A DNA stretch of 61,279 nucleotides, the filler included. It is 5 parts of 5 records of this genome, joined end to end, with 100 filler letters (N's around TTAATTAATTAA, not from the genome) between each part and the next. Parts side by side here need not be neighbours in the genome. Positions count along the whole stretch, not along the records: positions 1 to 21,172 come from SRR31156797_5072; 4 more parts are not named here. One strand, written 5' to 3'. The notes under the pieces are model-generated. The model had not been told where the DNA came from. It worked only from the letters and a program-made list of their open reading frames with translations, and ran no database searches. Position numbers and translations under genes: made by a program. Below are positions 5,733-59,864 of the stretch, one piece after another. The number at the start of each line of letters is the position of its first letter. Within the stretch, counting starts at the first letter, position 1.

Positions 5733-7364
5733 TTGGCCATGACCCTCTTCAAAAGGGCCGGAAAAATTCTCTTTTTTCCGCTGTTTCTACTCCTTGCATC
5801 GGCGTATCTTTTCACCACATCAACCCTTGTCTATTCTGAACCTCGGAAAACCCCAGAATCAACCATCCGGGAACCCCGGGCGGGGTTGGGTCTCATGCAG
5901 GCGGTCCAGGTAACACTCTACAAACAGCCCGAAGTTCTGATTCAGCGGCAGGTGGTGGAGAGTTCTCGCGGCAACCTCCGGATGGAAGCGGGCATGTTTG
6001 ATCCGAGCCTGACCTCTTCGTTTCTCTATCAGACCAACGAGTATGCCCCCACCTACTGGCAGCAGCAGCTGTACGGAATCGGCGACCGGAGCTATTCCAC
6101 CACCGGATCTTCCATCGCTTTAGAGACCAAGTCCCGTTATGGGTTCAGTTTCGGCCCCAGCGTGGGCATTACCCGCAGTCATGGCATCACCGATTATCTG
6201 ATGCCCACCAGTTACAACCAGGCCATTGTTGCATTTTCCGTCAATGTTCCCTTGCTCAAGGGGATGGGAAAGGAGGCGGCCGATGCCCATGAAATGGCCG
6301 CCATGGAAGAGCTGGAAGCCAGCACCCTGGACCTTCAACAGACCATTTCCCGGAGCGTCATGAATACCACGCAGGCCTACTGGAATTATCTCAAGGCACT
6401 CCGGCAGTTTGAGGTCTTCCGGGAAATGGAATCGGATGCCGCAGAGACCCTCCAAGCCATAAAACACCTGGTTCAGGGGGATGAACGGCCGGCATCCGAT
6501 CTGGATCCCTTCGAGGCCAATCTGGCCCAGAAGACATCCCAGCGCATCAATGCGGGGCAAACGCTTTTCGAGGCCAAGCAGAATTTGGGGCTGGCCATGG
6601 GTCTGGCCTACGGCGCCATTGACAATCTGCCCCTTCCCGCGGATGTTTTTCCCGACACTGCATCGATGGGGCTTGCTTCCAACAACATGAATCCCGACGC
6701 CCTCTTTCAGGAGGCCCTTCGGAAGAGGCCGGATTATCGGGCGCTCAAGAAACGGGAAAACGCCGCCAAAATTCTTCTGACAGCCGCCAGAAACAATGTT
6801 CTTCCCCAACTGGACATCAATGCGGGGGTGGGATACGCGGGGCTTGAAAACGGCGGCGAGGTGAGCGATTATGTAAGATCCCTGGGAAAAAACGTCACGG
6901 GGGCCAACTACCAGGCGGGCATCCAGTTTAGATACCCTTTTGGAAACAACGAGGCGGAAGGGTTGGTGGTTCAACGCAGATCTGATCTGCAAAAGGTGGT
7001 GATAAGGACCCGGGATCTTGCGCGAAAGATCAATTCCGGCATATTGGTGGCGGTGCAGGCCCTGTGGCGAACCATCCGGGAACTGAAGGAAACCCGCAAT
7101 TCCATCGCCCACTACAAAAAGGCCGTATCCAGCGAAGAGATTAAATTCAGCATGGGAATGGCCTCGGTGATGGATGTCATCAACATGCAGGACAGGCTTC
7201 GGGATGTCCGGTTGAGCGAGGTGGCCCAGATGAACCGGTTCGCGGACGCCGTGGTGCAATTGGGTTTCGAGACGGGAACCCTTGTGATGGCCCAAGGGGA
7301 CACTTACCGGATCGAATTGAAAAATCTGACTTCGCCATGGTCCGCAAAGGAGCCCCGTCAATGA
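5733..7364 (+). CDS. TolC-family outer membrane efflux protein
   Basis: Signal peptide and OEP-type repeats (AYWNY.., LPQLDINAG, ALRKRPDY). First gene of a type I secretion operon. Start may be ATG 5739. Confidence 0.9.
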   Translation: MAMTLFKRAGKILFFPLFLLLASAYLFTTSTLVYSEPRKTPESTIREPRAGLGLMQAVQVTLYKQPEVLIQRQVVESSRGNLRMEAGMFDPSLTSSFLYQTNEYAPTYWQQQLYGIGDRSYSTTGSSIALETKSRYGFSFGPSVGITRSHGITDYLMPTSYNQAIVAFSVNVPLLKGMGKEAADAHEMAAMEELEASTLDLQQTISRSVMNTTQAYWNYLKALRQFEVFREMESDAAETLQAIKHLVQGDERPASDLDPFEANLAQKTSQRINAGQTLFEAKQNLGLAMGLAYGAIDNLPLPADVFPDTASMGLASNNMNPDALFQEALRKRPDYRALKKRENAAKILLTAARNNVLPQLDINAGVGYAGLENGGEVSDYVRSLGKNVTGANYQAGIQFRYPFGNNEAEGLVVQRRSDLQKVVIRTRDLARKINSGILVAVQALWRTIRELKETRNSIAHYKKAVSSEEIKFSMGMASVMDVINMQDRLRDVRLSEVAQMNRFADAVVQLGFETGTLVMAQGDTYRIELKNLTSPWSAKEPRQ

Positions 7365-8668: not shown

Positions 8669-10849
8669 ATGGCCCATTCCTCCGGGATCTGGAAAAAGCG
8701 ACGCGTCAAAACCCCCACCATCCTTCAGATGGAGGCGACGGAGTGCGGTGCGGCCAGTCTTGCCATGGTTCTGGCCTATTACGGGCTTTACGTCCCTTTG
8801 GAGCAACTGCGCATTCAGTGCGGTGTATCCCGGGACGGGAGCAAGGCCAGCAACATCGTGAAAGCCGCCAAAAAGTACGGCATGACGGCCAAGGGTTTCA
8901 GAAAGGAACCCCAGGCCCTCAAAGACCTGCCGCTCCCCATGATCCTTTTCTGGAAATTCAATCATTTTCTCGTTCTTGAAGGTATCAAAGGGGATCACGC
9001 GTACCTCAACGATCCCGCAACCGGGCCGAAAAAAATTTCCGTCAAAGTGCTGGATACGGCCTTTACGGGGGTTGTGCTCACTTTCGAGCCGGAGGACGAT
9101 TTCAGAAAAGGGGGTCGGAAACCCAATGTCCTGGGATCCCTGAAACGAAGGTTTACGGGATGCGGAAAAGCCCTGGCCTATGTGGTGCTGGCAGGACTCT
9201 TTCTCATTGTACCGGGCCTGGTTTTTCCAGCTTATACCAAGGTCTTCCTGGACAATGTGCTCATCGACGGGTATACGTCCTGGCTCAGACCCCTTCTGTT
9301 GGCCATGGGAATCACGGCCGTTTTAAGTTTTGGTTTGACCTGGCTTCAGCGGTTTTTTCTCCTTCGATTTGAATTGCGCCTTTCCTTGAGCGGGTCGACC
9401 CGGTTTTTTCATCACATCCTGCGTCTTCCCATCCCCTATTTTTCTCAGCGCTTTGCAGGAGATCTGGCCACCCGGGTACATTTAAACGACAAGGTGGCCC
9501 AGCTTCTTTCGGGCCAGTTGGCCGTCACCGTGATTCATCTGATCACGGCAATCTTCTATGTGGCGCTCATGTTTCAGTACAGCATCCTTCTGACCTTCGT
9601 GGCCATGGGGTTCGCCCTGCTGAACCTGGTGGCGTTGAAAACGGCTTCCCATCGCAGAAAGAACGTGAACATGGCCCTTCAGCAGGATATGGGAAAGCTC
9701 ATGGGGCATACCATGACCGGTCTCCAGATGATCGAAACCTTGAAGGCAGGGGGAGCGGAAGCGGACTTTTTTACCCTATGGGCGGGCTACCAAAGCAAAG
9801 TGGTCAATTCGCAGCAAAGGCTGTCGGTTTCCACCCAGCTCCTCTCCGCCGTCCCCCCGACACTGCTCTCCCTGAACCACACCATCATGCTCTTTTTCGG
9901 AGCCGTACTCATTATGAACGGAGAGATGACCATCGGTACGCTCTTTGCGTTTCAGATCCTGATGATGGGCTTCATACAGCCCTTCAGCCGTTTTGTGGAC
10001 ATGGGAAGCCGGCTGCAGGAGATCCATGCGGACATCAACCGCCTGGATGACGTGACGGCCAACCCCCAAGATGAAACATTTGATGAACAACGGGCGGACC
10101 CGAAAACGCTGTCCCATGGATCCGTGAAACTGAACGGTCCCCTTGAACTGAAAAACATCACCTTCGGGTACAGCCCCCTGGAACCGCCGTTGATCAGGGA
10201 TTTCAACCTGACCTTGAATTCCGGCGCCCGAGTGGCGCTGGTGGGGGCCTCGGGATCGGGGAAATCCACGGTGGCAAAGCTGGCGGCCGGCCTCTACAAG
10301 CCCTGGGAGGGAGAAATCCTTCTGGACGGCCGACCCATGGCTTCCATTCCCAGGGAGGTCTTTGCCCACTCCGTGGCCATGGTGGACCAGGATATCTTCC
10401 TCTTTGAAGGGACCGTTCGTGAAAACCTGACCCTGTGGGACAGGACCCTTCCGGAAAAATCCCTGATCCGGGCGACCAGGGATGCCTGCATCCATGAGGA
10501 CATCGTTCTTCGTCCCGATGGATATGAGAGCGCCGTCGGTGAAGGGGGCGCCAATTTCAGCGGCGGACAGGCCCAGCGGTTGGAAATCGCCAGGGGATTG
10601 ACCGGCAATCCCGGCTTTTTGATCCTTGACGAAGCCACCAGTGCCCTGGATCCGGAAATCGAGGCACAAGTGGACACCCATTTAAGACGGCGGGGCCTCA
10701 GCTGTCTGATCATCGCCCACCGCCTGAGCACCATCCGGGATTGTGACGAGATTATTGTTCTGGACCGGGGAGTGGTGGTTCAGCGGGGCACACATCAGGA
10801 ACTAAACGCGCAAGTAGGGATTTATGCCGAGCTCATCAAATCACAGTGA
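8669..10849 (+). CDS. NHLP bacteriocin export ABC transporter with C39 peptidase, permease and ATPase domains
   Basis: TPTILQMEATECGAASL (catalytic Cys), GVSRDGS, FW.FNHF..DPA, Walker A GASGSGKS, signature FSGGQ. Confidence 0.95.
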   Translation: MAHSSGIWKKRRVKTPTILQMEATECGAASLAMVLAYYGLYVPLEQLRIQCGVSRDGSKASNIVKAAKKYGMTAKGFRKEPQALKDLPLPMILFWKFNHFLVLEGIKGDHAYLNDPATGPKKISVKVLDTAFTGVVLTFEPEDDFRKGGRKPNVLGSLKRRFTGCGKALAYVVLAGLFLIVPGLVFPAYTKVFLDNVLIDGYTSWLRPLLLAMGITAVLSFGLTWLQRFFLLRFELRLSLSGSTRFFHHILRLPIPYFSQRFAGDLATRVHLNDKVAQLLSGQLAVTVIHLITAIFYVALMFQYSILLTFVAMGFALLNLVALKTASHRRKNVNMALQQDMGKLMGHTMTGLQMIETLKAGGAEADFFTLWAGYQSKVVNSQQRLSVSTQLLSAVPPTLLSLNHTIMLFFGAVLIMNGEMTIGTLFAFQILMMGFIQPFSRFVDMGSRLQEIHADINRLDDVTANPQDETFDEQRADPKTLSHGSVKLNGPLELKNITFGYSPLEPPLIRDFNLTLNSGARVALVGASGSGKSTVAKLAAGLYKPWEGEILLDGRPMASIPREVFAHSVAMVDQDIFLFEGTVRENLTLWDRTLPEKSLIRATRDACIHEDIVLRPDGYESAVGEGGANFSGGQAQRLEIARGLTGNPGFLILDEATSALDPEIEAQVDTHLRRRGLSCLIIAHRLSTIRDCDEIIVLDRGVVVQRGTHQELNAQVGIYAELIKSQ

Positions 10850-13535
10850 CCAGGGATCCCGATCTTCGGCTGCCGCTTTTTCCGGTGGCGTGTCCGTTGC
10901 AGTGGCAGGAAACAGGCCCCTGTTGGCCCTGGACCCCCATTCCTTTTGGATCGTCAAAAGGGGGCAGGTGGACCTCTTTGTCGCCAGAATGGAAAACGGA
11001 AAAGTCAAAGGTCCACGCCACCATCTCTTTTGGATGGGAGAAGGAGATTATCTTTTCGGCATGGCCCTGAAAGAGTCAACCCATGAACTGGGCATCATGG
11101 CCTTGGGAAAGCCAGGGACGGAACTGATCCGTTATGACCGAGAGATCCTCGGCAAAGCATTGGCATCGGATTCGTCCGGAAAGACCATACTGCCTCACGT
11201 AGAGAGATGGATTGCCAGGTTGTCCCAGGTGGCAGGCGTTTCAAAGAGGGATGTTCCCGGCGGAGAAGCGTTTGACAGTGCGCTTGACGGATTTCACGAA
11301 ATCGTCATTCAGGGGGTTGCCGAGGAAGCGGAGAAGAAACAGATCAAGGATCGAGGCCGTTTTGATCAACGCATCCTTCAAGACCTGGCAGGACTGGAAA
11401 AGACCCTTTTCCATCTGGGCACCACCCTGTTTCGAAAACGGAAAACCGTTCTTGCACCGAGCAGGGCCGGCACATCCCTTTTTGCCTCCGCAATGGCGGT
11501 TGCCAAAGCCTCCGGCATAGAGACGGAAAGACTCTTAGATGCCGTGGCCGGGAAACAGAGGGACCTCACCCTGGACCATATTGCCAGGGCGGGCAATTTC
11601 TTTACCCGCCGGGTGGTGCTCACGCCGGGCTGGTCCGAAAAGGACAACGGTCCCCTCTTGGGCCGGTTGGAGGACGAAAACGGCGGGCGTTTTGTGGCCC
11701 TCATGCCGACCTCCCCCACGCGATATGCCCTTTACGATCCGGAAAAGGGAACCCGCACACCCATGACCAGGGCATTGGAGGAACATATCCGCGGGATAGC
11801 CCATACGTTCTATAGACCCTTTCCGTCTCAAACGCTTTCCATTCGCCATATCCTGCGATTCGTCCTTGCAGGGGTTCGGCGTGATCTGAGCATGATGGCC
11901 CTGGCGGGAGTGGGCGGGGCCCTCCTGGCCCTGTTGATTCCCATCATGACGGGGGTGATCATCGACGCGGTGATTCCCGAAGCCAACCGGGGCGAGCTGT
12001 TGCAGATCGCCCTGATCCTGGTGGTGAGCGTTTTCGCCGCGTTCATGTTCCAGATAACCCGGGTCATTGCCGTGGTCCGTATGGAAGGGCGGATGGGAGC
12101 GGGGTTGCAGGCGGCGGTCCTGGACCGTTTGCTGAACCTGCCGACCCCTTTTTTCCGCAAGTTCACCGCGGGTGATCTGGCCACCCGGGCCATGGGCGTC
12201 AACCATATTCGTCAGATCCTTTCGGGCGCCACCCTCACCACGGCCATGACGAGCATCTTCTCTTCCTTCAACCTCATCGTCATGTTTGTCTATGACTGGC
12301 ATCTCGCCCTTCTGGGCTTGGGCATAATCCTGATCACCCTTTTCATTTCAGGGTTTTTAGGCATTTCCATGGTCCGGTATCAAAGAGAGGTATTCAATAT
12401 CCAGGGGAAAAACGCAGGGATCGTTCTGCAGTTTCTTACGGGGATTGCCAAGCTCCGCATGACCGGAACGGAAGATCGGGCTTTCGGGGTGTGGGCGGAA
12501 AATTTTTCCAGGAAAAAAATCATCGATTTTAAATCCGGAAAACTGAACGCCGCTCTGGACACGGCCGTTTCTTTTATCCCAATGGTATCCACCATGTTGA
12601 TTTTCTGGTTTTTCTTAAAGTCCCGTATGTCGGGAATGAGCACCGGTCATTTTTTGGCCTTCAATGCCGCATTCGTAAGCTTTCAGACGGCATTGGTCCA
12701 GACAACGTTGGTTTTTTCCACCCTTCTCCACATCATTCCCCTGTGGGAGCGGTCAAAACCGATCCTTGGAACCGTCCCGGAGGTGGCTGAGGTCAAGACG
12801 GCCATCTCCGATTTCAGCGGCCGTGTGGCGGTGGACCATGTGACCTTTCGGTACCACCGGGACGGACCGGAGGTGCTCCGGGATGTGAGTCTTGAAATCG
12901 CACCCGGTGAATTCGTTGCGGTGGTGGGAAGTTCCGGTTCAGGAAAATCAACGCTTTTAAGGCTCCTTTTGGGGTTTGAAAAGCCGGAATCGGGGGTCGT
13001 TACCTATGACCGGCATGACCTGGCGCATCTGGACGTGAAGAGCGTTCGAAGACAGCTGGGCGTGGTCCTTCAGAACGGACGGGTCATGCCCGGAAGCATC
13101 CTCAAAAACATCACGGGCGCCGCCGACCTCTCCCTGGAAGATGCGTGGGAAGCGGCCCGCATGGTGGGGCTGGAGGAGGATATCAAGGCCATGCCCATGG
13201 GGATGCATACGCTCGTTCCGGCGGGAGGCGGCACCCTATCCGGCGGACAGCGCCAACGGCTCATTATTGCCAGGGCCATTGTAAAACGGCCCCGCATCCT
13301 CCTTTTTGATGAGGCCACCAGCGCCCTGGACAACCTCACCCAGGGGATTGTCATGGAAAGCCTCGAAAAACTGAAGGTCACGCGGCTGGTGATTGCGCAC
13401 CGGCTCAGCACCATCACCAACGCGGACCGGATCTATGTATTGGAACAGGGCAAAATCGTGGAGTCGGGAGCCTACGATCAACTGATGAAAGCAAACGGTT
13501 TCTTCCACCGGCTTGCCGTACGGCAGATTGCGTAA
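10824..13535 (+). CDS. NHLP bacteriocin export ABC transporter permease/ATPase (second subunit)
   Basis: N-terminal cNMP-like region, W..KDNGPLL motif, TM domain, GSSGSGKS, LSGGQ. Usual partner of the C39-ABC. Confidence 0.92.
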   Translation: MPSSSNHSDQGSRSSAAAFSGGVSVAVAGNRPLLALDPHSFWIVKRGQVDLFVARMENGKVKGPRHHLFWMGEGDYLFGMALKESTHELGIMALGKPGTELIRYDREILGKALASDSSGKTILPHVERWIARLSQVAGVSKRDVPGGEAFDSALDGFHEIVIQGVAEEAEKKQIKDRGRFDQRILQDLAGLEKTLFHLGTTLFRKRKTVLAPSRAGTSLFASAMAVAKASGIETERLLDAVAGKQRDLTLDHIARAGNFFTRRVVLTPGWSEKDNGPLLGRLEDENGGRFVALMPTSPTRYALYDPEKGTRTPMTRALEEHIRGIAHTFYRPFPSQTLSIRHILRFVLAGVRRDLSMMALAGVGGALLALLIPIMTGVIIDAVIPEANRGELLQIALILVVSVFAAFMFQITRVIAVVRMEGRMGAGLQAAVLDRLLNLPTPFFRKFTAGDLATRAMGVNHIRQILSGATLTTAMTSIFSSFNLIVMFVYDWHLALLGLGIILITLFISGFLGISMVRYQREVFNIQGKNAGIVLQFLTGIAKLRMTGTEDRAFGVWAENFSRKKIIDFKSGKLNAALDTAVSFIPMVSTMLIFWFFLKSRMSGMSTGHFLAFNAAFVSFQTALVQTTLVFSTLLHIIPLWERSKPILGTVPEVAEVKTAISDFSGRVAVDHVTFRYHRDGPEVLRDVSLEIAPGEFVAVVGSSGSGKSTLLRLLLGFEKPESGVVTYDRHDLAHLDVKSVRRQLGVVLQNGRVMPGSILKNITGAADLSLEDAWEAARMVGLEEDIKAMPMGMHTLVPAGGGTLSGGQRQRLIIARAIVKRPRILLFDEATSALDNLTQGIVMESLEKLKVTRLVIAHRLSTITNADRIYVLEQGKIVESGAYDQLMKANGFFHRLAVRQIA

Positions 13536-13551
13536 GAGTGAGGGCCACAGC

Positions 13552-14763
13552 ATGAAAATCAAGTTCATCCTTCCGATGGTTCTGTTCCTTTTGCCGGCTT
13601 CCTGCATTGTGCCGGAAAACCCGGCCGGGGAGCGGACGGAACGGGCGAAACAGGCCCATGGGGATATCTTTGTGGGCGCTGTTGCACCCTGGTCCGCCAT
13701 TGACGTCCTCTTGTGGGAAGGGATCGCCATGGCCGTCCATGAAATCAACCATTCGGGCGGGGTTTTGGGCCGGAAGATCCGGGTTCTCAAGCGGGACGAT
13801 GAAAGCAGCATCAAAAAAGGGATCCTGATCGCTCAGGAATTGGGAGAGAACCCTGATATCGTGGCGGTTATGGGACATTATGAATCGTTCATCACCCTGC
13901 CGGCTTCCGTGGTCTACCAGTATTACGGCCTCCTGATGCTCTCAACCGTCGATACCAACCCCGATCTCACGCGGCAAGGCTTTCCCCTGGTCTTTCGCAC
14001 CGTGCCCAACGACGTCGAATACGGCAGGAGACTGGCCGATTTCTGCCGCCAAAAAGGATTCCATCGGTTGCTGGTGATGCTTGAGCGGAGCGAATACGGC
14101 AGGGATTTTTCAGACGCCTTTGCCACGGTGGCCCAGAGCGCGGCCCTTCATATCCTGGACGGCGCCTCCTACGACCGGATGACCGGAGACAAGGAACTTG
14201 GAAGGATTCTTGAGCGGTGGAAGGAGCGCTATTCATTTGATGCGATCCTGCTCTCCGGCGATCTCCCCCAGTCCGCCGCCATCATCCGGGAAGCCCGGCT
14301 GATCGGGATCGAGCAGCCGATTATCGGCGGCATCGCCATGGACCAAAAAAGGCTTCTTTCCCTGGTGGGGAAAGAGACCAAAGACGTGTTTCTCCCCACC
14401 AACTTTTATCCCCATTCAACCTCCCCTGAAGTGGAGCGGTTTGTGAAGCACTTTCAAAAACGGTACGGCCGTATGCCCGATGTTCTGGCGGCCCAGGGGT
14501 ACGATACGGTTCACGCCCTGGCGTACGCCGTCAAAGAGGCGGGAACCACGGCCCCCCATGAAATGGCGCATGCCCTCCGGGCTGCGGACGACCTGCGGGG
14601 CGTCACCGGAAACATGCGGTTTTCAAGGGAGGGAGACCGCATCATGGACAGAATTTTCATCAAAATGGTGGAGGACGGGGAATTCAAGTTCCTAAATCCC
14701 GCATCGGAGGGTGGTGGGATGATGTCGGAGAACTCTTGTGAACAGTCAGAAGTCGGCGGATAG
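13552..14763 (+). CDS. LivJ/branched-chain-amino-acid-type periplasmic solute-binding lipoprotein
   Basis: Lipobox LPASC, AVHEINHSGGVLGRKI, AAQGYD and GVTGNMRF motifs. Starts 16 bp after the ABC stop. Confidence 0.88.
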   Translation: MKIKFILPMVLFLLPASCIVPENPAGERTERAKQAHGDIFVGAVAPWSAIDVLLWEGIAMAVHEINHSGGVLGRKIRVLKRDDESSIKKGILIAQELGENPDIVAVMGHYESFITLPASVVYQYYGLLMLSTVDTNPDLTRQGFPLVFRTVPNDVEYGRRLADFCRQKGFHRLLVMLERSEYGRDFSDAFATVAQSAALHILDGASYDRMTGDKELGRILERWKERYSFDAILLSGDLPQSAAIIREARLIGIEQPIIGGIAMDQKRLLSLVGKETKDVFLPTNFYPHSTSPEVERFVKHFQKRYGRMPDVLAAQGYDTVHALAYAVKEAGTTAPHEMAHALRAADDLRGVTGNMRFSREGDRIMDRIFIKMVEDGEFKFLNPASEGGGMMSENSCEQSEVGG

Positions 14764-14794
14764 GTGGTTCGGAGCGTTATGGGAACGTGGGAAC

Positions 14795-14891
14795 GGGGAC
14801 GTTCTTGACTTATTAACTTTAGTGATATGAATGGGGGAAACAGAATCAAAAGCAAATCCTTACGTAAAGTTTATAAGTTAACAGCGTCCCC
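14795..14891. repeat. ~97-bp REP/MITE-like element with terminal inverted repeats, copy 1
   Basis: GGGGACGTTCTTGACTTAT ... ATAAGTTAACAGCGTCCCC (16/19 inverted match). Second copy at 17627-17718. Confidence 0.75.
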
Positions 14892-15023
14892 ATTTCCACG
14901 CATGTGGGTGTGGGCAACATGGAGCGCCTTTCCATAAAAAGGTAAAACGCTTTAAAAGGGTCGATTATGATGCTTCGGCCTTCCTTTTTCATCCGGGGAT
15001 CTGTTTGGCTTACGGTTGGAACC

Positions 15024-15200
15024 TGGCTCCCGACAGACCAATTGTGTCCATCAGGAGCGGCGAATATGCAATTTGAGGGCCTTGATCATCTGAAACCTCC
15101 TGAATAGAGGTGAAGGTTAGGTGAGAATACCGAAGAATCTTCAATAAGACGACAAAAAGCGCCTTGTGTCAAGGAAAAAATGGGCGTTCACAACGGTTCC
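15024..15200 (-). repeat. duplicated promoter + micro-ORF + hairpin module, copy 1
   Basis: Aligns with 20709-20884. Minus strand has TTGACA (15167-15172), AGGAGG (15096-15101), a micro-ORF and a 13-bp stem (15026-15058). Confidence 0.85.
15051..15089 (-). CDS. 12-aa micro-ORF MIKALKLHIRRS, copy 1
   Basis: AGGAGG 6 nt upstream of ATG. The identical peptide is encoded at 20736-20774 with four synonymous differences. Confidence 0.7.
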   Translation of the reverse strand: MIKALKLHIRRS

Positions 15201-15275
15201 ACGGTCCATGGTTGTAGGTCGAAAAAATCTGCAATCTTAGTGCGTTAGGAATTTCAGAAACAGCATACTTAGTTA

Positions 15276-15304
15276 TTGACATTTCACGAAACGCTTGTCA
15301 TCAT
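15276..15304 (+). promoter_or_regulatory. possible sigma70 promoter for the precursor/radical SAM pair
   Basis: TTGACA-N17-CATCAT, with a TGACA..TGTCA inverted repeat across it. Confidence 0.35.
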
Positions 15305-15490
15305 TTCCGGATGGCACGGATGTCATTGACCGGGAAATAGCCGTATTGAAAAAGCACGATCGCACAGGCCGGCCTTCTGGTTGGGCCGGCAGCCTAAACT
15401 CAAAGACCCGGACCCAAAAAGACAGATAAGCAAAGTGTCCCTGGAATTTCTCATGAAATATAATTATTTCTATAAAACTGGAGGGTTGTT

Positions 15491-15961
15491 ATGGATGATC
15501 AATCTGAAAAAATACTAGGAGCCGTAAAAGAGGTGCTGAAAAAATCGCTTTCCAATGAGAAAATCCGTGAGATGTGTTTAAATTCTCCCCTGGCGGTCGT
15601 TCTTGACTGCATGGATACGAAGATTCCAGAGGATTTCACCATCCGATTTGTTGAGGACATGGATGATGCGGTCAAAGAAATGTTTGTTGAAAGCAGCCTT
15701 GATATGAAAGAGACGGGGGATGCATTTAAACAGATTCTAACCATTGCATCAATTGATCGAAAATTTCGAAGACAATGCCTGGAAGACCCTGAACTTGTGC
15801 TGGGAAAATCCATTAAAACAGATTTGCCTGACGACATGGCGGCAAAGTTCAAGGAAAAAATTCGGGAAAATATCTTTCAGCTTCCGCCCGGATATGATCG
15901 GGAACTCAATGAAGAAGAGCTGGAAAAGGTGGCCGGCGGAACCGATAATCCCTGCAATTAA
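15491..15961 (+). CDS. NHLP-leader family RiPP precursor with a tandem duplicated leader and 6-aa core (TDNPCN)
   Basis: Two leader-like repeats (AVKEVLKKSLSNEKIREMCLNSP.. / AFKQILTIASIDRKFRRQCLEDP..), then LPP..ELNEEELEKVAGG double-glycine site. GGAGG RBS. Confidence 0.85.
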   Translation: MDDQSEKILGAVKEVLKKSLSNEKIREMCLNSPLAVVLDCMDTKIPEDFTIRFVEDMDDAVKEMFVESSLDMKETGDAFKQILTIASIDRKFRRQCLEDPELVLGKSIKTDLPDDMAAKFKEKIRENIFQLPPGYDRELNEEELEKVAGGTDNPCN

Positions 15962-15987
15962 GATGGTTTGAGTTAAGGGATTTCCCC

Positions 15988-17640
15988 ATGAACGTCATAT
16001 TTGTAAACTCGATCCATTATAATGAGATTATCCGATATCCCATTGGCACCATACCACTGGGGACCTTGACATTAGCCACTATCTTAAAAAAGCGAAACCA
16101 TGATGTTAAGATTATTGACTTCAATTATCTGGTAAATGAAAAAAAAATAACGCTCGGCCGGGATGCTCCGGACACCCTCCGCCGGTTCGGCGAGCATATC
16201 CTTAAACAACGGCCGGAAATGATTTGTTTCTACACGGTAGCGCTCTCTTATCATAATACGGTGCTCGTAGCCAGGCACATCAAAGAAAGAAGCCCGCAAA
16301 TCCCCATAATCTTCGGCGGACCACATGCCTCACATACTCCCTATGAATCAATGAAAGCCTTTCCATGGATAGATGTCATTGCCGTCGGGGAGGCGGACCA
16401 TGTCATTGAAAGGATTGTCGGGGCATTTTCCGGCAATGAAAATATGAGAAATATCCCGGGGATTCTTTACAGAGAAGATAGTGACATCCGGCAAACGAAA
16501 CCCGCGGAAGACATATGCAACCTGAGTGATCTCCCGGAACCGGATTATTCGTTAACCCCTTTTTTCAAAATGCTCCCATTTATCTCAATTGATCCTGGAA
16601 GAAGCTGCCCGTTTCGTTGTAAATACTGCTCTACCAGCACCTTCTGGAAAAACAGTTTTCGTCTGAAAAGCATTGGGAAGATCCTGGAAGAAATTAAATA
16701 TTTCCATTTTACGTATCAAATAAAAAACTTCTATTTGACGCACGACATTTTTACCTATAACAGGGAGAGACTCCTTGAGTTTTGTGAAAAAATTTTGGAG
16801 GAAGGTCTTGATATCCGGTGGTCTTGCAGCTCCAGGGCCGATACGCTGGATGAGGAAATGATCGTAATGATGAAGAAATCCGGCTGTAAGGCGATTTCAC
16901 TGGGTATTGACAGCGGTTCTCCACGCATTCAGAAGGTCATCAATAAAAACCTGAATCCGGGCCATGCGTTGGATGCGATAAAGATATTGTGCAAATACCG
17001 GATGGATGTCAAAATCAATTTCATGGTCGGTTTTCCGGAAGAAACAGAAGAAGATGTCCTGTTGACATTGAAAATGATGAGGGCCTGTATTGAATCAGGG
17101 GTAAAGAACATATCCTATAAACCGTTAATGATACTTGCCGGTACAAAATATTACGATGAATATAAAGCGCATCTGGTCCTGGATGGTTTTCGATCTTACT
17201 ACAATGACGTATATGATTATAAATACTGCGTGGACATGATAAAAAAATACCCGAAGATATTTTCGCATTTTTACAATATTAAAATTCCGTTACGGCAAGG
17301 TTTGAACCATTTTGCGCTTTTCATTAAACTATATTATATTTACCTGCACCGTGTCCTTCAGCTGACGTATGAATATATTTTGGCCTATTATGAAGATAAT
17401 TTTATAAAAATCTTTTATGATTTCAGAAAGGCCAACGAAAATTTCCATGAGGACGTCATACAATACAGACGGAAGTCTATGCGAAAACAAATTACGGATG
17501 GGGTATTTTTTGATTTGTTGATAACGCAATTCAAACGCTATTTGTTTTCAACAAAATTTGGAGAAATGACAAGCCTTATCCGTTTCTATTTTCAAGTGGA
17601 ATCCGGAGGGGTTGAAAGGGGAGAGCGGGGACGTTCTTAA
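15988..17640 (+). CDS. B12-binding domain radical SAM protein (class B methyltransferase-like)
   Basis: N-terminal cobalamin domain (PLGTLTLA, IIFGGPHAS, GEAD), CPFRCKYC motif, GIDSGSPRIQ. AT-richer than the transport genes. Confidence 0.92.
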   Translation: MNVIFVNSIHYNEIIRYPIGTIPLGTLTLATILKKRNHDVKIIDFNYLVNEKKITLGRDAPDTLRRFGEHILKQRPEMICFYTVALSYHNTVLVARHIKERSPQIPIIFGGPHASHTPYESMKAFPWIDVIAVGEADHVIERIVGAFSGNENMRNIPGILYREDSDIRQTKPAEDICNLSDLPEPDYSLTPFFKMLPFISIDPGRSCPFRCKYCSTSTFWKNSFRLKSIGKILEEIKYFHFTYQIKNFYLTHDIFTYNRERLLEFCEKILEEGLDIRWSCSSRADTLDEEMIVMMKKSGCKAISLGIDSGSPRIQKVINKNLNPGHALDAIKILCKYRMDVKINFMVGFPEETEEDVLLTLKMMRACIESGVKNISYKPLMILAGTKYYDEYKAHLVLDGFRSYYNDVYDYKYCVDMIKKYPKIFSHFYNIKIPLRQGLNHFALFIKLYYIYLHRVLQLTYEYILAYYEDNFIKIFYDFRKANENFHEDVIQYRRKSMRKQITDGVFFDLLITQFKRYLFSTKFGEMTSLIRFYFQVESGGVERGERGRS

Positions 17641-17718
17641 CTTATTAACTTAAGTCATATGAATGGGGGAAACAGTATCAAAGGCAATTGATCGCGTCAA
17701 ATTTTAAGTTAACAGCGT
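17627..17718. repeat. REP/MITE-like element, copy 2 (right end clipped), supplying the radical SAM stop codon
   Basis: GGGGACGTTCTTAACTTATTAACT..ATGAATGGGGGAAACAG..TAAGTTAACAGCGT aligns with 14795-14891. Confidence 0.75.
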
Positions 17719-17738
17719 TATTCCTGGGTGGACGGTCG

Positions 17739-17861
17739 GCGGACAACCTGCGGGGCGCCACCGGAAACATGCGGTTTTCAAGGGATGGAGACCGCATCAT
17801 GGACAAGATTTTCATCAAGATGGTGGAGGAGGGGCAATTCAAGTACCTTAATCCCGGATAA
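17739..17861 (+). pseudogene. 3' fragment of a paralog of the solute-binding lipoprotein
   Basis: Encodes ADNLRGATGNMRFSRDGDRIMDKIFIKMVEEGQFKYLNPG*, nearly identical to 14584-14701. Confidence 0.85.
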
Positions 17862-17898
17862 GAATTAACAACTTCACCCTTGTCCACAGGGCTTGTCA

Positions 17899-18508
17899 CT
17901 ACGCAATTGGAGCGTTCACACACGGGATAGCCAGACCGGACAAATCAATACAGTTCTCTAAAACGTCACCAGCGATTCCCTGATCATCCCAATTCCCCCC
18001 CAACGACAGTCTCCAATAACTCCACAGGCAATTCATCACGATAAGGCGATATCGGAACCACAAAATGACGGATACGCTCCGTGTTTTCCAGGACGACCGC
18101 TTTCATCCCGGCCGGCAACTGAATGCCGTTTTTTTCCAGGACGCCGTTGGGGTCATCCATCAATCGGTACTTGAAGCCGGCATCATTTTGTGTCTTGGTG
18201 ATGAGCCTTTTGTAGGCCCTTTTGAATTCATATAACCGCTTGAGATCTCCTCGACTTTTTTTATACGCTTCTTCTTCCTCCAAACGTTTTTCAGGCGGTT
18301 CATGGTAAGGTATCGGCGTCGGTAAAACCACATGATACAAATCATCCGTATTTTCTACCACAACGGCCTCAACCCCCGCTTCCAGCTCCATGCCGGTTTC
18401 CCGGACCACAGCGGTGGGGTCGGCCTGTAACTTGGCTTTGAAGTCGGCATCCAGCCAGGTCCTGGCCACCAGTTTGGCGAAAGCTTGCTTGAAATTATCT
18501 TTGTCCAT
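17899..18508 (-). CDS. NHLP-leader family RiPP precursor with tandem leader, frameshifted at a G7 tract (as sequenced it stops at 17984)
   Basis: GAGAGG RBS. Two leader repeats (KLVARTWLDADFKAKLQADP..VVENTDDLYHVVLP / RLITKTQNDAGFKYRLMDDP..VLENTERIRHFVVP), then ELPVELLETVVGG. Removing one G gives core NWDDQGIAGDVLENCIDLSGLAIPCVNAPIA followed by TAG TGA. Confidence 0.8.
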
Positions 18509-18654
18509 GAGATTCCTCTCCACTGATCCTCACAAGTTGCGTTCCCTCTGATTCAGCCTGACGTCGTCAAAACTCCAGCACTTCCTTCTCAACCGAACAG
18601 TCATATTCTTCCAGCAGATCGACCCCGGCTGTCACGGCTTCCAGCTCCGTGGCT

Positions 18655-18726
18655 GTGGTGCGTTTCAATATGTTCGGGCACCATTGGTTGCGGCTCCGTT
18701 GGCTTCCAAGCCCACGACCGGAAGCC
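18655..18726 (-). pseudogene. 72-bp coding relic paralogous to the N-terminal part of the radical SAM relic at 20335-20406
   Basis: GFRSWAWKPTEPQPMVPEHIETHH versus GFRSRAWKPTEPQSMLPEHIEIDH. Many differences are synonymous third-position changes. Confidence 0.7.
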
Positions 18727-18788
18727 GGCACACGCTTCGAATTAGAAATTCAATCAGAGGATTTCTTCTAAACTAAAGCATTGTTGCA

Positions 18789-19616
18789 TTATTCTTTAGA
18801 ATATGCTCTTTTTGCCCAATCTTGAGTTATCTGCTCATAAACCCCATTTGACTGAATAATCTTAATCCCTTCTTTATATTTTTGAAGGGCCCACTCTCCT
18901 TTAGGATTTGATTTGCTAAATCCGATATGGAGCTCTAATTTTGTGCTATGAAATGCCAACGCAACTTTTCCCGACATCCCTGCTTTCCGTATGATAAAGT
19001 CTGCGGGTTTTGTTTCATTATTCCACAAAATAACGGTATCAAGACGACCCGTTCCAAGTTTCCTTATATTCATTTCTTCAGAGCGGGTTTTTTCAACAAT
19101 GATCTTACCCTCTTTTTCCAATTTATAAAATATGTCATCATATTCATACCCTATTACTGTTCCAACAATGGTTCCTTTTTTGACATCTTCAGATTTTGAA
19201 GCGCTTAAAGGATTTTCAGTATTATGGAAATAACTTATATACGCAAAAAAAAGCGGGATTTCAGGAAACGTTATGATGTTTTCTACCTCCGGGATTTTTG
19301 CCATATTAAAACATCCAACCGCTTCTCCTGTTTCCGTATATTTTTTACACCTTGCGTAGGGAACCACCTCAAAATAAACATCCACATCAACTGCATCATA
19401 AATCGCTTTTACAAGATCATTCGCATAACCGGTCCCATCCGCTTTAGACCAGGGAGCTGCATCATTTTCAACATAAATCTTCAGCTTTTCCCTGCCTTCT
19501 GCATTTTGAGCTACCATCAGAAAGATTAAAATAGTCAAAACAACAGGGAGCATCCGGAATTTTTGATTATGCCATTTATTTTGAGCCGAATTTTGCATCA
19601 TTTTGCCATTGATCAC
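18789..19616 (-). CDS. extracellular solute-binding protein, family 3-like
   Basis: Signal peptide, then ENDAAPWS..GYANDLV..VPYARC..VIGYEY..G.Y.QI pattern. True start may be a downstream Met. AT-rich. Confidence 0.8.
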   Translation of the reverse strand: MINGKMMQNSAQNKWHNQKFRMLPVVLTILIFLMVAQNAEGREKLKIYVENDAAPWSKADGTGYANDLVKAIYDAVDVDVYFEVVPYARCKKYTETGEAVGCFNMAKIPEVENIITFPEIPLFFAYISYFHNTENPLSASKSEDVKKGTIVGTVIGYEYDDIFYKLEKEGKIIVEKTRSEEMNIRKLGTGRLDTVILWNNETKPADFIIRKAGMSGKVALAFHSTKLELHIGFSKSNPKGEWALQKYKEGIKIIQSNGVYEQITQDWAKRAYSKE

Positions 19617-19637
19617 TCTGCTGGTAGCGTTCCTAAT

Positions 19638-19699
19638 GGGGTCAAATCACCCTTTGACGCTTGGTTATTTCAGCAAGAGTCAAGAGCGGATTTGACCCC
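19638..19699. repeat. 62-bp palindromic REP-like element
   Basis: GGGGTCAAATCaccctTTGAC-N20-GTCAAgagcgGATTTGACCCC. It sits where homology of the radical SAM relic ends. Confidence 0.8.
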
Positions 19700-20406
19700 G
19701 TTTCATGGGCCTTTAGAAACGCAATTTTCTCTTCGTCCAGCAGGGTGGCATTGGTGGTCATCCCGTATCTCACCTCTTTTCCAAGTGCCCATGCCCTTTT
19801 GTCGGCATGGGCCACCACATGCCGGATCAACGGAAAATTCATCAGGGGTTCGCCGCCGCTAAAGAGGATCCCCACCGACTTTCTTTGGCCGGATTGGGCC
19901 ATGAGCCAGTCCACGGCCCTTGTTGCGGTGGCTCCGTTCATCTTTTCTTCACTGCCGCCCTCCCCGGTGTTCCCGTAGCAGTAGACGCAGTTGAGGTTGC
20001 ACTGTCGGGTGATGTTCATGGACAGGGTCCCCACGGGTTCTGCCATGAGCTTTTTAATGAGGTGATCCATTCCGGGTCTGTTCATCCCCGGCGAATGGAA
20101 TGGTGCATCTTCCTTGGGGGCGCCCGCAACCAGGCCCAAGTTCTCCAGTTCTTCCATGACCGGGGAAGGGACCAGGCACCCCTTATTGAACCGGATTTGG
20201 TCCAGGATACGGGCCATGCGGTCATCAATAACCGCACTGGTCAAGGCGTGGACGTTCAAGAGATACTTCGTGCCGCCATGACGGAACAGGTGATAGGGCA
20301 CAAGGGAGATGTTACAGTAGTATGTTTTTCCGTTATGGTCTATTTCAATATGTTCAGGCAGCATGGATTGCGGCTCCGTCGGTTTCCAGGCCCGCGAGCG
20401 GAATCC
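19700..20406 (-). pseudogene. truncated peptide-maturase-type radical SAM enzyme
   Basis: NITRQCNLNCVYCY, FSGGEPLMN, TTNATLLDEE. The C-terminal half of the barrel and any SPASM domain are missing. Confidence 0.85.
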
Positions 20407-20440
20407 CTCACGGACTCTAATCCTTCTGTGATTTAGCCGG

Positions 20441-20656
20441 AATATAATCGATCTCTTCTTTTTCAAACAGGGTCCCATTGGTGGTGGCGTAGAAAATAAC
20501 TTCTTTTTGGGCCGCATGGGTCCTTTTCCGGGCATACGAAACAATTTTCTGCATGAGCGGAAAATTTAAGAACGGTTCACCGCCGAAGAATCCAATCCGG
20601 ATCTTCTTGACATTCCCGGACTGTTCAATGAGCCAATCCACCGCCTGAAAAGCGGT
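20441..20656 (-). pseudogene. internal fragment of a second paralogous radical SAM enzyme
   Basis: TAFQAVDWLIEQSG..FFGGEPFLNFPLM..ATTNGTL aligns with the adjacent relic. No CxxxCxxC motif is retained. Confidence 0.85.
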
Positions 20657-20708
20657 TTATTCCACCATTTTCCGGAAGATGCCGGCGGGATTCGGGTTGA
20701 AAAGCGCT

Positions 20709-20884
20709 TGGCCCCCGACGGAGGAACCGTGTCTGTTAGGAGCGGCGAATATGCAATTTAAGGGCTTTAATCATCCGGAACCTCCTGAATAGATGTGAAG
20801 GTTTGGGGAGAAGAACGTATAATATTTGATGAAACGACAAAAAGCACATGGTGTCAAGGAAAAAAGGGCCATCAAAAGGGTTCC
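20709..20884 (-). repeat. duplicated promoter + micro-ORF + hairpin module, copy 2
   Basis: Aligns with 15024-15200. TTGACA at 20852-20857, AGGAGG at 20781-20786, weaker stem at 20711-20743. Confidence 0.85.
20736..20774 (-). CDS. 12-aa micro-ORF MIKALKLHIRRS, copy 2
   Basis: ATG ATT AAA GCC CTT AAA TTG CAT ATT CGC CGC TCC TAA, with AGGAGG 6 nt upstream. Confidence 0.7.
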   Translation of the reverse strand: MIKALKLHIRRS

Positions 20885-21172
20885 TCAACCTGTGCATTTC
20901 ATTTTTGCTGAGGCCCTTGCTCCTACCCGCCCTACACTAATTTTTCAAGGGGTAGGTGTCTCAGCTACATTGGCACAGAGGGCATTCTCCAAAAAGGCTA
21001 TTTCAAAAACTCTCCGAGAGGCCTATTTTCAAAAAACCGGTTGCATAACACAAGAAATTTCTTGTACAAAAAGACTAACAGCATCTAAGCCAGGTTCCGG
21101 ATCAATCCGAGCATTTGGAATGATTTCAAAACCCTTTTCCGGCATGAGGATTTACTGATGAGAAAAGTGCTC

Positions 21173-21272
21173 NNNNNNNNNNNNNNNNNNNNNNNNNNNN
21201 NNNNNNNNNNNNNNNNTTAATTAATTAANNNNNNNNNNNNNNNNNNNNNNNNNNNNNNNNNNNNNNNNNNNN
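21173..21272. other. artificial contig linker
   Basis: 44 N + TTAATTAATTAA + 44 N. Confidence 0.99.
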
Positions 21273-21338
21273 TGTGCCGCATAACATGCTGAAATCATAT
21301 GATCCAACAATTTACATGCGTTCGCCCTGATTTTCCCC

Positions 21339-25735: not shown

Positions 25736-26284
25736 CTATTTTATTCGTCTGCGAACACCGGCAAACCCTAAAAGCCCGCATCCCAACAGAACCAGCGCCG
25801 GGGGAACGGGAACAGGATTGTCTGTGAACTCAACTACATACCCGACCATATTACTTCCATTGTGCATATCATCCCATTTGCCCTTGGTAGGCCAAAAGTG
25901 TAGATAATCCTGGCCGATGCCATTTCCATTGTTCGGTTCGTTTTTTTCCCAAAGGTTGAAATCCACCCAGTCTTCTCCGCTATCCCAGGCCCAACCCTCG
26001 TCAGCTTTACCGTTAGTATCCGTCTGATACCCGCCCAGCCAGTAATTTATGTGGCTCTGGCTCTGTCCGGAGAGTAAATTCGCCAGAAGAGTATTTTCTT
26101 CCACACTGTTTATGGAAGCAAGATACCCTCCCATTTCATTGGCATTGGCCTGGGCAGCCTTCCAGGTGAGGTCATTATCCTGGGTAACGACTTCATACCA
26201 ATGGCCGTCAAAGGTAGATATGGCGGCATTTGCGGTTGCACTCAATAAAAAGAAAGCACCGACAATAAGTAACGCTCTTTTCAT
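25736..26284 (-). CDS. C-type lectin domain protein with PEP-CTERM/VPLPA-type sorting tail
   Basis: Signal peptide, W..A...A...GGYLASINS.EEN, YWLGG, EPNN, W.D, then tail NPVPVPPALVLLGCGLLGFAGVRRRIK. Confidence 0.88.
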   Translation of the reverse strand: MKRALLIVGAFFLLSATANAAISTFDGHWYEVVTQDNDLTWKAAQANANEMGGYLASINSVEENTLLANLLSGQSQSHINYWLGGYQTDTNGKADEGWAWDSGEDWVDFNLWEKNEPNNGNGIGQDYLHFWPTKGKWDDMHNGSNMVGYVVEFTDNPVPVPPALVLLGCGLLGFAGVRRRIK

Positions 26285-53740: not shown

Positions 53741-54204
53741 AGTTGGTCCCGACTGGTCATAACCGGAGGTTAATCACAAAATCGGGCAGATGTCAAATCG
53801 CCAGACCTGAAAAATAATAATGTCAATTAGATATGTCGCAAAATTTTATAGCCCTACAAGGCTTTCGGTGGTGTTGCGCACAACCCCCCGTGTATTCATG
53901 GCAGTTTGTGCTTCCTTGTGGCGTATGGGCTTTCCTAAAGCCCTTCTGGCAGTAAAATGAAAAAACCAAGGGAAAGCAAAAAGATGAAGTTTTTTTGGAA
54001 AAAATTCAAATTTTTTTAATCCTTATATCGGAATTCCAGGCTCAATAGAGTAGAGTTGATACGCGAGGCCAAATGATTTAATATGTTTTTTTTGACCCGG
54101 CCTATTCATGAATAATCAGGGATACCCAACAGAATGGAGGAAGGTTGTTACGGCATCAGTCCCATTTCCGGTTGCAACCTCCCCTTTGCCGACATGAGAA
54201 TTTA

Positions 54205-57580: not shown

Positions 57581-57603
57581 GACTCCGCCCCGAGGCGACA
57601 ATA

Positions 57604-58536
57604 TTGTATTACACCAAAAACAGATGGACCGATAAGTCCGGTGCTCCGCTCTGGACCTGGCTGGTCGCCGGGTTCCTGGCGGTGGGTTTTATCGGGATTT
57701 CCTGTTTTGGGTTTTCCCGCCCCTATTATCTTCATTTCTTCAATGCAGAACGACTCGAGCGTTTTTCGCGACCGGAGAAAGATAACCCGGTAAAAATAGT
57801 GGCTATCGGAACATCCCTTACCCAATGCGCTCTGTATGGAGACAAAAAAATGGAACGTCTTGCTGAAGAATCCGGCAAGAACATAGCGTTTATCAGGTTT
57901 ACACTCCCCGCAGTTACTATTGATGGTTTTTTTGACATAACCGAAGCTGCAATAAATTCTCCAGCAGACATTATTTTTATTGAATCAGGGATATTCGGTC
58001 TGGATTTAGAATATTACAAATATAATAATCACGACATTCATCGCTCATACTTAAGAATGAAACTAAAAGAAATCATCAATTATATGATTCCCATAAGAAT
58101 AGACGAACAAGACAATCGTCACAATGTCAACTATTTCGACCGAGCTGTTAATATAGAAACCAAACCGTTAACAGAAGATGAGATCAAGAAATACAAGGAA
58201 AAGTCTGTGCGATACAGAGTCCGAAACCTCTCTGAAAGCGCAGATTATAAGCGGCTTTTTAACAAAGCCATCGAAAAGGGAAAGGTTGTGGTTTTTCTGG
58301 ATCTTTCGCGCTCTAAAGAGGCGTGGAATATTCTGCCATCGGCCCTTGAACGTGATTTTGACAAAATAATGGCCGGTTACAAGGAAACCTACGACATTAA
58401 CTTCATCAAGTTCCCATATCGCCTGCCGCGCGGCTATTACCTAGACTTCGCCCACCTAAACGCCAAAGGGCGTAAGTTCTATTCAGAATGGTTCCTGGAT
58501 GAGCTTGCTTCGCTGATGGAGAGAACGGCGCCATGA
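57604..58536 (+). CDS. membrane-anchored SGNH-like protein (DltD/AlgJ-like acyltransferase)
   Basis: N-terminal TM helix, AIGTSL (G-x-S) and DFAHLN (DxxH) motifs. TTG start after GAGG is inferred. Confidence 0.7.
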   Translation: MYYTKNRWTDKSGAPLWTWLVAGFLAVGFIGISCFGFSRPYYLHFFNAERLERFSRPEKDNPVKIVAIGTSLTQCALYGDKKMERLAEESGKNIAFIRFTLPAVTIDGFFDITEAAINSPADIIFIESGIFGLDLEYYKYNNHDIHRSYLRMKLKEIINYMIPIRIDEQDNRHNVNYFDRAVNIETKPLTEDEIKKYKEKSVRYRVRNLSESADYKRLFNKAIEKGKVVVFLDLSRSKEAWNILPSALERDFDKIMAGYKETYDINFIKFPYRLPRGYYLDFAHLNAKGRKFYSEWFLDELASLMERTAP

Positions 58537-59788: not shown

Positions 59789-59864
59789 AGACTGACACAA
59801 AAACAGCAATGGCAACCACACAAAGATGGCGCCCCCCCTTTGCAAAAGGGAACGATGGGGAATC

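What the first reader, a model, noticed from the sequence alone, without database searches (positions are those of the whole stretch)
15491..17640. 150-aa leader for a 6-aa core (TDNPCN) coupled to a B12 radical SAM enzyme
Seen: ELEKVAGG|TDNPCN* is followed 26 bp later by the radical SAM start, leaving no room for a hidden longer core. Established: NHLP cores are usually tens of residues long. Inference: the product is a tiny methylated or otherwise modified hexapeptide. Alternatively the protein works as a scaffold or trans-acting leader.
Basis: partly seen in the sequence, partly recalled or inferred. Interest (0 to 1): 0.7.

Follow-up and report, generated by a model that had tools for sequence, protein, structure and literature searches.

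The report
Doubled leader with six-residue peptide core
A gene encodes a long, duplicated 'handle' protein carrying only six cargo residues, next to a vitamin-B12 radical enzyme and a cut-and-export transporter, so it probably makes a tiny modified peptide; cores this small are rare but already known, and a damaged gene cannot be ruled out.

Summary
In detail: ORF 15491-15961 ends ELEKVAGG|TDNPCN*, 26 nt before an intact B12 radical SAM gene, downstream of a complete NHLP export trio. The 150-aa leader is two NHLP domains in tandem. No single-base change reveals a long core (at most 11 aa); only a larger deletion could. Six residues is shorter than all 99 comparable NHLP cores (minimum 9, median 30), but SrpE's core is a known pentapeptide, and this scan noted a 4-aa NHLP core and a doubled leader on other DNA. 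No close homolog exists, so conservation of the core is untestable. The enzyme (best relatives 38-42%) lacks a C-terminal module, as do 14 of 16 copies beside NHLP genes against 4 of 128 elsewhere (three lineages only); one such lineage has NHLP partners ending 0-4 residues after the Gly-Gly position. Against: neighbouring genes are broken (a second precursor probably frameshifted, two radical SAM fragments). Best reading: the enzyme methylates an unactivated carbon in TDNPCN, and the C39 transporter cuts at Gly-Gly and exports it (0.45); cross-linking 0.13, decayed allele 0.27, scaffold 0.15. New variant of a known kind.

The parts
15491..15961 (+). Precursor 1: tandem NHLP leader (150 aa) + core TDNPCN
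15506..15667 (+). First NHLP repeat (residues about 6-59), no Gly-Gly of its own
   Evidence: hmmsearch E 3e-15 with a leader profile, phmmer against second half E 1e-7
15716..15940 (+). Second NHLP repeat ending in L(-12), L(-7), V(-4), Gly-Gly
   Evidence: TIGR03793 residues 79-150; sequence
15941..15958 (+). Predicted core TDNPCN (stop TAA 15959-15961)
15988..17640 (+). B12-binding radical SAM enzyme, 550 aa, CxxxCxxC at 207-214, helical C-terminal domain, lacks the last about 45 residues of most relatives
5733..7364 (+). TolC-type outer membrane efflux protein
   Evidence: PF02321 116.5 bits
7337..8665 (+). NHLP secretion adaptor (HlyD-like)
   Evidence: TIGR03794 348.7 bits, cut-off 156.2
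8669..10849 (+). NHLP C39 peptidase/ABC exporter
   Evidence: TIGR03796 1070.9 bits, cut-off 853.3; Cys, His and Asp motifs seen in the peptidase domain (triad recalled)
10824..13535 (+). NHLP second ABC subunit
   Evidence: TIGR03797 894.3 bits, cut-off 709.4
13513..14763 (+). Periplasmic binding protein (LivK-like), last gene of the exporter run
   Evidence: PF13458 146.9 bits
15276..15304 (+). Promoter-like site upstream of precursor 1 (consensus match only)
   Evidence: 10 of 12 with TG; 10 sites found against 7.3 +/- 2.3 in shuffles, so not above chance as a set
14791..14891 (.). About 100-nt element with inverted ends, copy 1
17623..17718 (.). Copy 2 of that element; it supplies the enzyme's last codons and stop
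   Evidence: 86% over 97 nt
17733..17859 (+). Duplicated 3' fragment of the binding-protein gene
   Evidence: 90% over 127 nt to 14578-14704
17899..18523 (-). Precursor 2: tandem NHLP leader; as read it ends GG-ELG-stop (17984), but a run of 7 G (17995-18001) precedes a 31-residue, two-Cys tail in another frame: probably frameshifted
19642..20641 (-). Two incomplete pieces of Nif11-peptide-type radical SAM maturases (no SPASM part)
   Evidence: TIGR04064 184 and 100 bits, cut-off 518.7

Best explanation
A minimal one-enzyme peptide pathway. Precursor 1 and the B12 radical SAM enzyme are made from one two-gene unit (inferred from a 26-nt gap, ribosome sites and shared codon bias). The doubled NHLP fold docks on the enzyme (inferred), which uses SAM, a [4Fe-4S] cluster and methylcobalamin to add a methyl group to an unactivated carbon of the six-residue tail, most likely a beta-carbon (Pro, Thr or the penultimate Cys are my guesses; +14 Da) (inferred from ApyD and MpcB chemistry, not shown). 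The neighbouring C39 ABC exporter then cuts after Gly-Gly and secretes the hexapeptide through HlyD/TolC (inferred from family assignment). The short core is the gene's real design, not damage.
For: Shown: stop, gap and frames leave no room for a long core short of a multi-base deletion. Leader end keeps hydrophobic -4, -7, -12 and Gly-Gly, the features linked to C39 cleavage in PMC12537861. All three exporter genes pass their cut-offs. The enzyme keeps its cluster and cobalamin-region motifs and folds with pLDDT 89 like TsrM, TokK, OxsB, CysS. GC3 is 0.43 and 0.47 for precursor and enzyme against 0.67-0.71 for the five exporter-run genes, so the two travel together. Among 144 closed enzyme copies (of 146 examined), the C-terminal module is missing in 14 of 16 beside TIGR03793-type NHLP genes and in 4 of 128 others: the short C-terminus fits an NHLP partner rather than decay. 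Related enzymes sit beside leaders with cores of 10-19 aa (L017, L025, L034, L066, L070, L147) and beside NHLP genes ending 0-4 residues after the Gly-Gly position (L002 group). Precedent: SrpE core LCCCW (PMC10858898); ApyD methylates the penultimate residue of its precursor. Complex prediction: weak support, 0.47 against best control 0.00 (runs 0.47, 0.50, 0.00; contacts agree in at least 4%; partner pLDDT at least 66); the mark was reached by 51 of 78 solved and 2 of 108 mismatched pairs, but at 0.60 or under by only 5 of 78 solved and by all 4 mismatches that passed.
Against: No homolog of the precursor closer than about 41% over one leader repeat, so no conserved core. None of 99 callable NHLP cores is 6 or shorter; the 18 tandem-leader ones are 16-69 aa. 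The 14 of 16 count is three lineages, with a fourth (L034/L099) long, and 0 of 6 enzymes beside more distant NHLP-clan peptides are short. The link to the L002 group has no tree support and vanished when the C-terminal part was left out. Substrates beside related enzymes are mostly Val/Ile-rich; TDNPCN is polar. The enzyme's stop codon comes from a repeat element, and nearby genes are broken. It fails the ApyD cut-off (298.5 against 750), so the reaction cannot be carried over.
Confidence: 0.45

Rival explanations
1. Decayed allele: an ancestral longer core was lost by a deletion in a rearrangement hot spot, and the gene now makes nothing useful.
For: Core shorter than all 99 comparators. Same region: precursor 2 probably frameshifted at a G run, two broken radical SAM pieces, four duplicated blocks, enzyme 3' end joined to a repeat.
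Against: 156 + 550 codons with no stop or frameshift and all invariant enzyme columns kept; a deletion would have had to spare a stop and the ribosome site; the enzyme ends where other NHLP-partnered relatives end; five-residue NHLP cores exist.
Confidence: 0.27
2. Scaffold or trans-acting leader: the doubled NHLP protein activates or positions the enzyme, and the real substrate is another peptide (such as precursor 2's longer tail) or the uncut protein.
For: L002 group: two NHLP genes without Gly-Gly and with little or no core, stops conserved in 4 of 4 loci printed (near-identical strains), in a genome with no TIGR03796 exporter over cut-off. Two database proteins (P0108, P0114) are tandem NHLP without Gly-Gly or core (short contigs). 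Haft 2010 describes tandem and fused NHLP-Burkholderia pairs thought to act together.
Against: Precursor 1 keeps a full cleavage motif beside an intact C39 exporter, which a pure scaffold would not need. Precursor 2 lies on the other strand with different codon bias (GC3 0.58) and next to its own type of maturase fragments.
Confidence: 0.15
3. Same short-core pathway, but the enzyme cross-links rather than methylates: for example a thioether from the Cys to a beta-carbon of Thr, Asp or Asn, giving a tiny ring (-2 Da).
For: The core has one Cys after a turn-forming Pro. B12 radical SAM enzymes also form C-S and C-C bonds (ApyD paper discussion; PbsB cross-link, PMC12257519). The enzyme is in an uncharacterised subfamily.
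Against: Most peptides seen beside its relatives are Val/Ile-rich, several without Cys (L002 group, L007, L011, L070), which fits methylation; there is no auxiliary SPASM domain.
Confidence: 0.13

Closest known systems
srp clusters of sponge microbiomes (SrpE precursor, SrpC YcaO, SrpI brominase; PMC10858898, passages)
   Same: NHLP leader with an L(X)4L motif followed by a core of only five residues (LCCCW).
   Different: Single leader; modified by a cyclodehydratase and a halogenase, not a B12 radical SAM enzyme.
Aminopyruvatides (ApyA/ApyD; 10.1101/2023.10.30.564719, parts 1-2 of 4 and passages)
   Same: Best NCBIfam match of the enzyme is ApyD; a B12 radical SAM enzyme methylates a residue in the last few positions of the precursor.
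   Different: 298.5 bits against a cut-off of 750; no MNIO, P450 or methyltransferase among 35 window ORFs scanned; the precursor ends in Asn, not the conserved Asp, and has no aromatic residue in the tail.
NHLP precursors with the TIGR03794/03796/03797 export trio (Haft 2010, PMC2887384; Letzel 2014, PMC4289311; passages)
   Same: Leader similar to nitrile hydratase alpha without its active-site motif, Gly-Gly, export trio, radical SAM neighbours in anaerobes.
   Different: Leader 150 aa in two repeats against 66-85; core 6 aa against 14-59 in Letzel's table.
Proteusins and clavusporins with B12 C-methyltransferases (PoyB/PoyC recalled; MpcB, PMC10849626, passages)
   Same: Leader-dependent methylation of unactivated carbons is the mechanism proposed here.
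   Different: Those cores are long and hydrophobic with many methylations; TIGR03975 score 117.4 against 281.85; no epimerase or MpcC-like partner gene seen.

Membership tests
NHLP precursor (TIGR03793) | Similarity to nitrile hydratase alpha without the active-site Cys motif | tested here: met
   51.8 bits, cut-off 50.9; profile of 21 tandem leaders hits MprE7 8tb1 at E 3e-21 and NHase alpha twice; motif absent from the sequence
NHLP precursor (TIGR03793) | Gly-Gly at the end of the conserved region with hydrophobic -4, -7, -12 | tested here: met
   L-12, L-7, V-4, G-2, G-1 (rule from PMC12537861)
NHLP precursor (TIGR03793) | Single leader of about 66-90 aa | tested here: not met
   150 aa, two repeats; 18 of 99 callable hits also have leaders of 125 aa or more, so this is a recurring variant
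NHLP precursor (TIGR03793) | Hypervariable core with Cys/Ser/Thr | tested here: inconclusive
   Thr and Cys present, but only 6 aa and no homolog to show variation
NHLP precursor (TIGR03793) | Occurs with the TIGR03794/03796/03797 export trio | tested here: met
   All three above cut-off
B12-dependent (class B) radical SAM methyltransferase | N-terminal cobalamin-binding domain plus CxxxCxxC radical SAM domain | tested here: met
   PF02310 42.8 bits (cut-off 32.1), PF04055 93.8 (29.5), C207/C211/C214; fold like TsrM, TokK, CysS
B12-dependent (class B) radical SAM methyltransferase | Transfers a methyl group from methylcobalamin to a substrate radical | not testable with these tools
   Needs an assay
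Aminopyruvatide pathway | MNIO enzyme (class-defining) | tested here: not met
   None among 35 window ORFs scanned; the rest of the genome is not held
Aminopyruvatide pathway | Precursor with C-terminal Asp; enzyme above the ApyD cut-off | tested here: not met
   Ends in Asn; 298.5 against 750 bits
Polytheonamide-type proteusin | TIGR03975-type C-methyltransferase and radical SAM epimerase acting on a long core (recalled) | tested here: not met
   117.4 against 281.85 bits; no intact second radical SAM gene in the cluster
srp-type short-core proteusin | YcaO cyclodehydratase and flavin halogenase | tested here: not met
   None among 35 window ORFs scanned

The most novel reading that the evidence does not exclude
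This enzyme subfamily, when it drops its C-terminal leader-binding module and pairs with a doubled (or split, two-gene) NHLP fold, works on tails of six residues or fewer and performs a reaction not yet described for B12 radical enzymes on peptides (beta-methylation of Cys, Asn or Asp, or a Cys-to-carbon ring). The exported hexapeptide acts as a signal caught by the periplasmic binding protein of the same operon: a two-gene route to pheromone-sized modified peptides in anaerobes.
Probability: 0.14. Interest if true: 0.75.

Novelty: new variant of a known kind. Interest (0 to 1): 0.42.

Why it matters
If real, it is about the simplest test system for a large uncharacterised subfamily of B12 radical SAM peptide maturases (306 and 396 confirmed stretches in the genome and metagenome scans): one enzyme, one soluble folded leader, six residues to map by mass spectrometry. 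It would also say what a doubled NHLP leader is for and whether loss of the enzyme's C-terminal module reflects a change in how it grips its leader. The short core alone is not a first.

Tried and rejected
No whole genome is held, so relatives could not be searched. Word-based search with the precursor: 33 candidates, none at E 0.001. tblastn in plasmids: no match. Viral scan with the leader alignment could not run. No RNA holder listed; run X2 laid 0 records. A contig joint 15179 to 17626 has only 28 letters on one side and is probably the repeats elsewhere. Rfam over 13500-21300: 0 matches. Atlas: leader hits 0.80 (lead only); C-terminal domain gave no named family. Fold search of the leader model (pTM 0.52): best Z 5.1, rmsd 2.2, 51 aligned (MprE7), within the common range. 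First core count was faulty and was redone; 7 of 106 proteins had no callable motif and were dropped. Sequencing error at the stop or at precursor 2's G run: not supported. Nonsense mutation hiding a long core: rejected. ELG as a second ultra-short core: rejected in favour of a frameshift. Sister relation to the L002 group: nearest by path in FastTree, not in IQ-TREE without the C-terminal part (39 of 141 rows used). Paper searches for this combination (0 papers; 39, 67, 81: listings only, none describing a doubled NHLP leader with a short core and a B12 radical SAM enzyme by title or abstract start); subscription papers and the ApyD preprint's supplementary cluster list were not seen and may bear on novelty.

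Full report
Observation. The ORF at 15491-15961 encodes 156 residues ending ELEKVAGG-TDNPCN-stop, and a 550-residue B12-binding radical SAM gene starts 26 nt later; both have ribosome-site-like sequences. Reading through the stop adds four residues before a second TAA; one shifted frame gives nine residues, the other joins the enzyme's frame. So only a multi-base deletion could have removed a long core. A contig of run X1 (depth 37; possibly the source sample, hence not independent) matches 13400-20951 with no other letter or gap.

The leader. TIGR03793 matches residues 79-150 just above cut-off; residues 6-59 are a second copy of the same domain (E 1e-7 against the second half). The model shows the same helix-helix-helix-strand order twice (pTM 0.52). 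Nitrile hydratase alpha chains also match the profile twice. Doubling is not unique: 18 of 99 callable hits have leaders of 125 aa or more, Haft 2010 mentions fused pairs in the Burkholderia subfamily (passages), and this scan noted one before (e1-977966). The leader end keeps L-12, L-7, V-4 and Gly-Gly, the pattern tied to C39 cleavage (PMC12537861 passages).

How unusual is the core? Of 106 proteins from two searches, 99 had a callable Gly-Gly motif: median core 30, minimum 9, 5 at 10 or under, none at 6 or under; tandem-leader ones 16-69. Letzel 2014 lists 14-59 (passages). But SrpE has the five-residue core LCCCW on an NHLP leader (PMC10858898 passages; lead from e1-7676270, itself a 4-aa NHLP core). 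No close homolog of this precursor exists in what I could search: best 41% over one repeat.

The enzyme. Best NCBIfam match is ApyD, far under cut-off (298.5 against 750). ApyD methylates the beta-carbon of the penultimate Tyr of its precursor (preprint parts 1-2 of 4). Closest proteins are 38-42% identical, mostly 580-600 aa. Invariant columns, including the three cluster cysteines, are kept; the model (pLDDT 89) resembles OxsB, TsrM, MgmA, TokK and CysS. It lacks the last about 45 residues of most relatives, and its stop codon lies in a repeat element. In 150 loci of relatives (the best 80 stretches of 306 and of 396 were kept), 12 hold TIGR03793-type NHLP genes. Among 144 closed enzyme copies of 146, the tail is short in 14 of 16 in such loci (window included), 0 of 6 beside distant NHLP-clan peptides, 0 of 4 beside Nif11 or similar leaders, 4 of 118 others. 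Near-identical copies were not merged: this is three short lineages (window, L002 group, Vulcanimicrobiota) and one long (L034/L099). Peptides beside relatives are short and often Val/Ile-rich (10-19 aa cores in L017, L025, L034, L066, L070, L147; about 27-36 in L027/L029/L030). In the L002 group two 80-83-aa NHLP-like genes precede a 546-aa enzyme and end 0-4 residues after the Gly-Gly position, depending on alignment, without Gly-Gly; that genome has no NHLP exporter over cut-off. FastTree put this group nearest by path, unsupported; IQ-TREE on 39 rows without the C-terminal part did not. A complex prediction gave weak support: 0.47 against 0.00 for the best of three controls, one of three runs 0.00, contacts agreeing in at least 4%, partner pLDDT at least 66; passes at 0.60 or under include only 5 of 78 solved complexes and all 4 mismatches that passed, and 7 of 44 blind neighbours passed.

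Surroundings. Upstream on the same strand lie TolC, the three NHLP export genes above cut-off and a periplasmic binding protein. Precursor and enzyme share low GC3 (0.43, 0.47) against 0.67-0.71 for that run, so they look like a unit that arrived separately beside an exporter. Downstream on the other strand is a second tandem-leader gene whose apparent core ELG follows a run of seven G; another frame carries Gly-Gly and a 31-residue tail with two Cys, so it is probably frameshifted. Two incomplete Nif11-type maturase pieces and four duplicated blocks lie nearby. These are the only two NHLP genes in the window. This decay is the main argument against function.

Mechanism. Shown: the anatomy above. 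Inferred: leader binding, methylation at an unactivated carbon of the tail (by analogy to ApyD and MpcB), cleavage at Gly-Gly and export. I put methylated hexapeptide at 0.45, cross-linked hexapeptide at 0.13 (B12 enzymes also form C-S and C-C bonds), decayed allele at 0.27 and scaffold or uncut product at 0.15. A signalling role is speculation from binding proteins and sensor kinases next to both this locus and L077.

Verdict. It works like an NHLP/proteusin-type pathway with a B12 C-methyltransferase, is a member of the NHLP precursor family apart from leader length, and is not an aminopyruvatide, srp or polytheonamide-type cluster. I found no description of this combination (open-access library only). 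Each ingredient has precedent, the case rests on one sequence, and the test is easy. New variant of a known kind; interest 0.42.

Noticed in passing
window 17899-18523 (-): Second tandem NHLP precursor; apparent core ELG, but a 7-G run precedes a 31-residue two-Cys tail in another frame; probably a slipped homopolymer (possible phase switch or plain mutation).
   Followed up: partly
L002:7305-7811, L076-L078, L080: Pair of 80-83-aa NHLP-like genes with no Gly-Gly and almost no core, directly upstream of a 546-aa relative of the enzyme, among sensor and binding-protein genes; no NHLP exporter over cut-off in that genome.
   Followed up: partly
window 14791-14891 and 17623-17718: About 100-nt element with inverted ends in two copies; the second supplies the enzyme's stop codon. 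No Rfam match.
   Followed up: partly
window 15024-15200 / 20709-20884; 14578-14704 / 17733-17859; 18663-18726 / 20343-20406: Three further duplicated blocks at 81-90% identity, marking a rearrangement hot spot.
   Followed up: no
L041:10701-10988, L060:2299-2586, L106, L110: Conserved 94-95-aa distant NHLP-clan peptides (weak TIGR04509) with an Ile-rich stretch beside a separate clade of these enzymes, in Acidobacteria and Methanoperedens records.
   Followed up: no
L012, L014, L018, L082; L007, L011; L015: Other families of small peptides without NHLP leaders beside these enzymes in Clostridia (a repeated CVNHIV(I)KP motif; Ile/Thr-rich tails; repeated precursors ending CFTFCG); those of them scanned matched no NCBIfam model.
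   Followed up: no
P0108, P0114: 149-aa tandem NHLP proteins with no Gly-Gly and no core, on contigs of 1.0 and 1.6 kb.
   Followed up: no
window 54145-60803: Two AMP-binding enzymes (one with a carrier domain) and an MBOAT acyltransferase, followed on the other strand by a radical SAM/SPASM gene.
   Followed up: no
window 44079-46631 and 25736-26284: An 850-aa protein with three LEA_2 stretches; a C-type lectin-domain protein ending in a PEP-CTERM-like tail (recalled motif).
   Followed up: no
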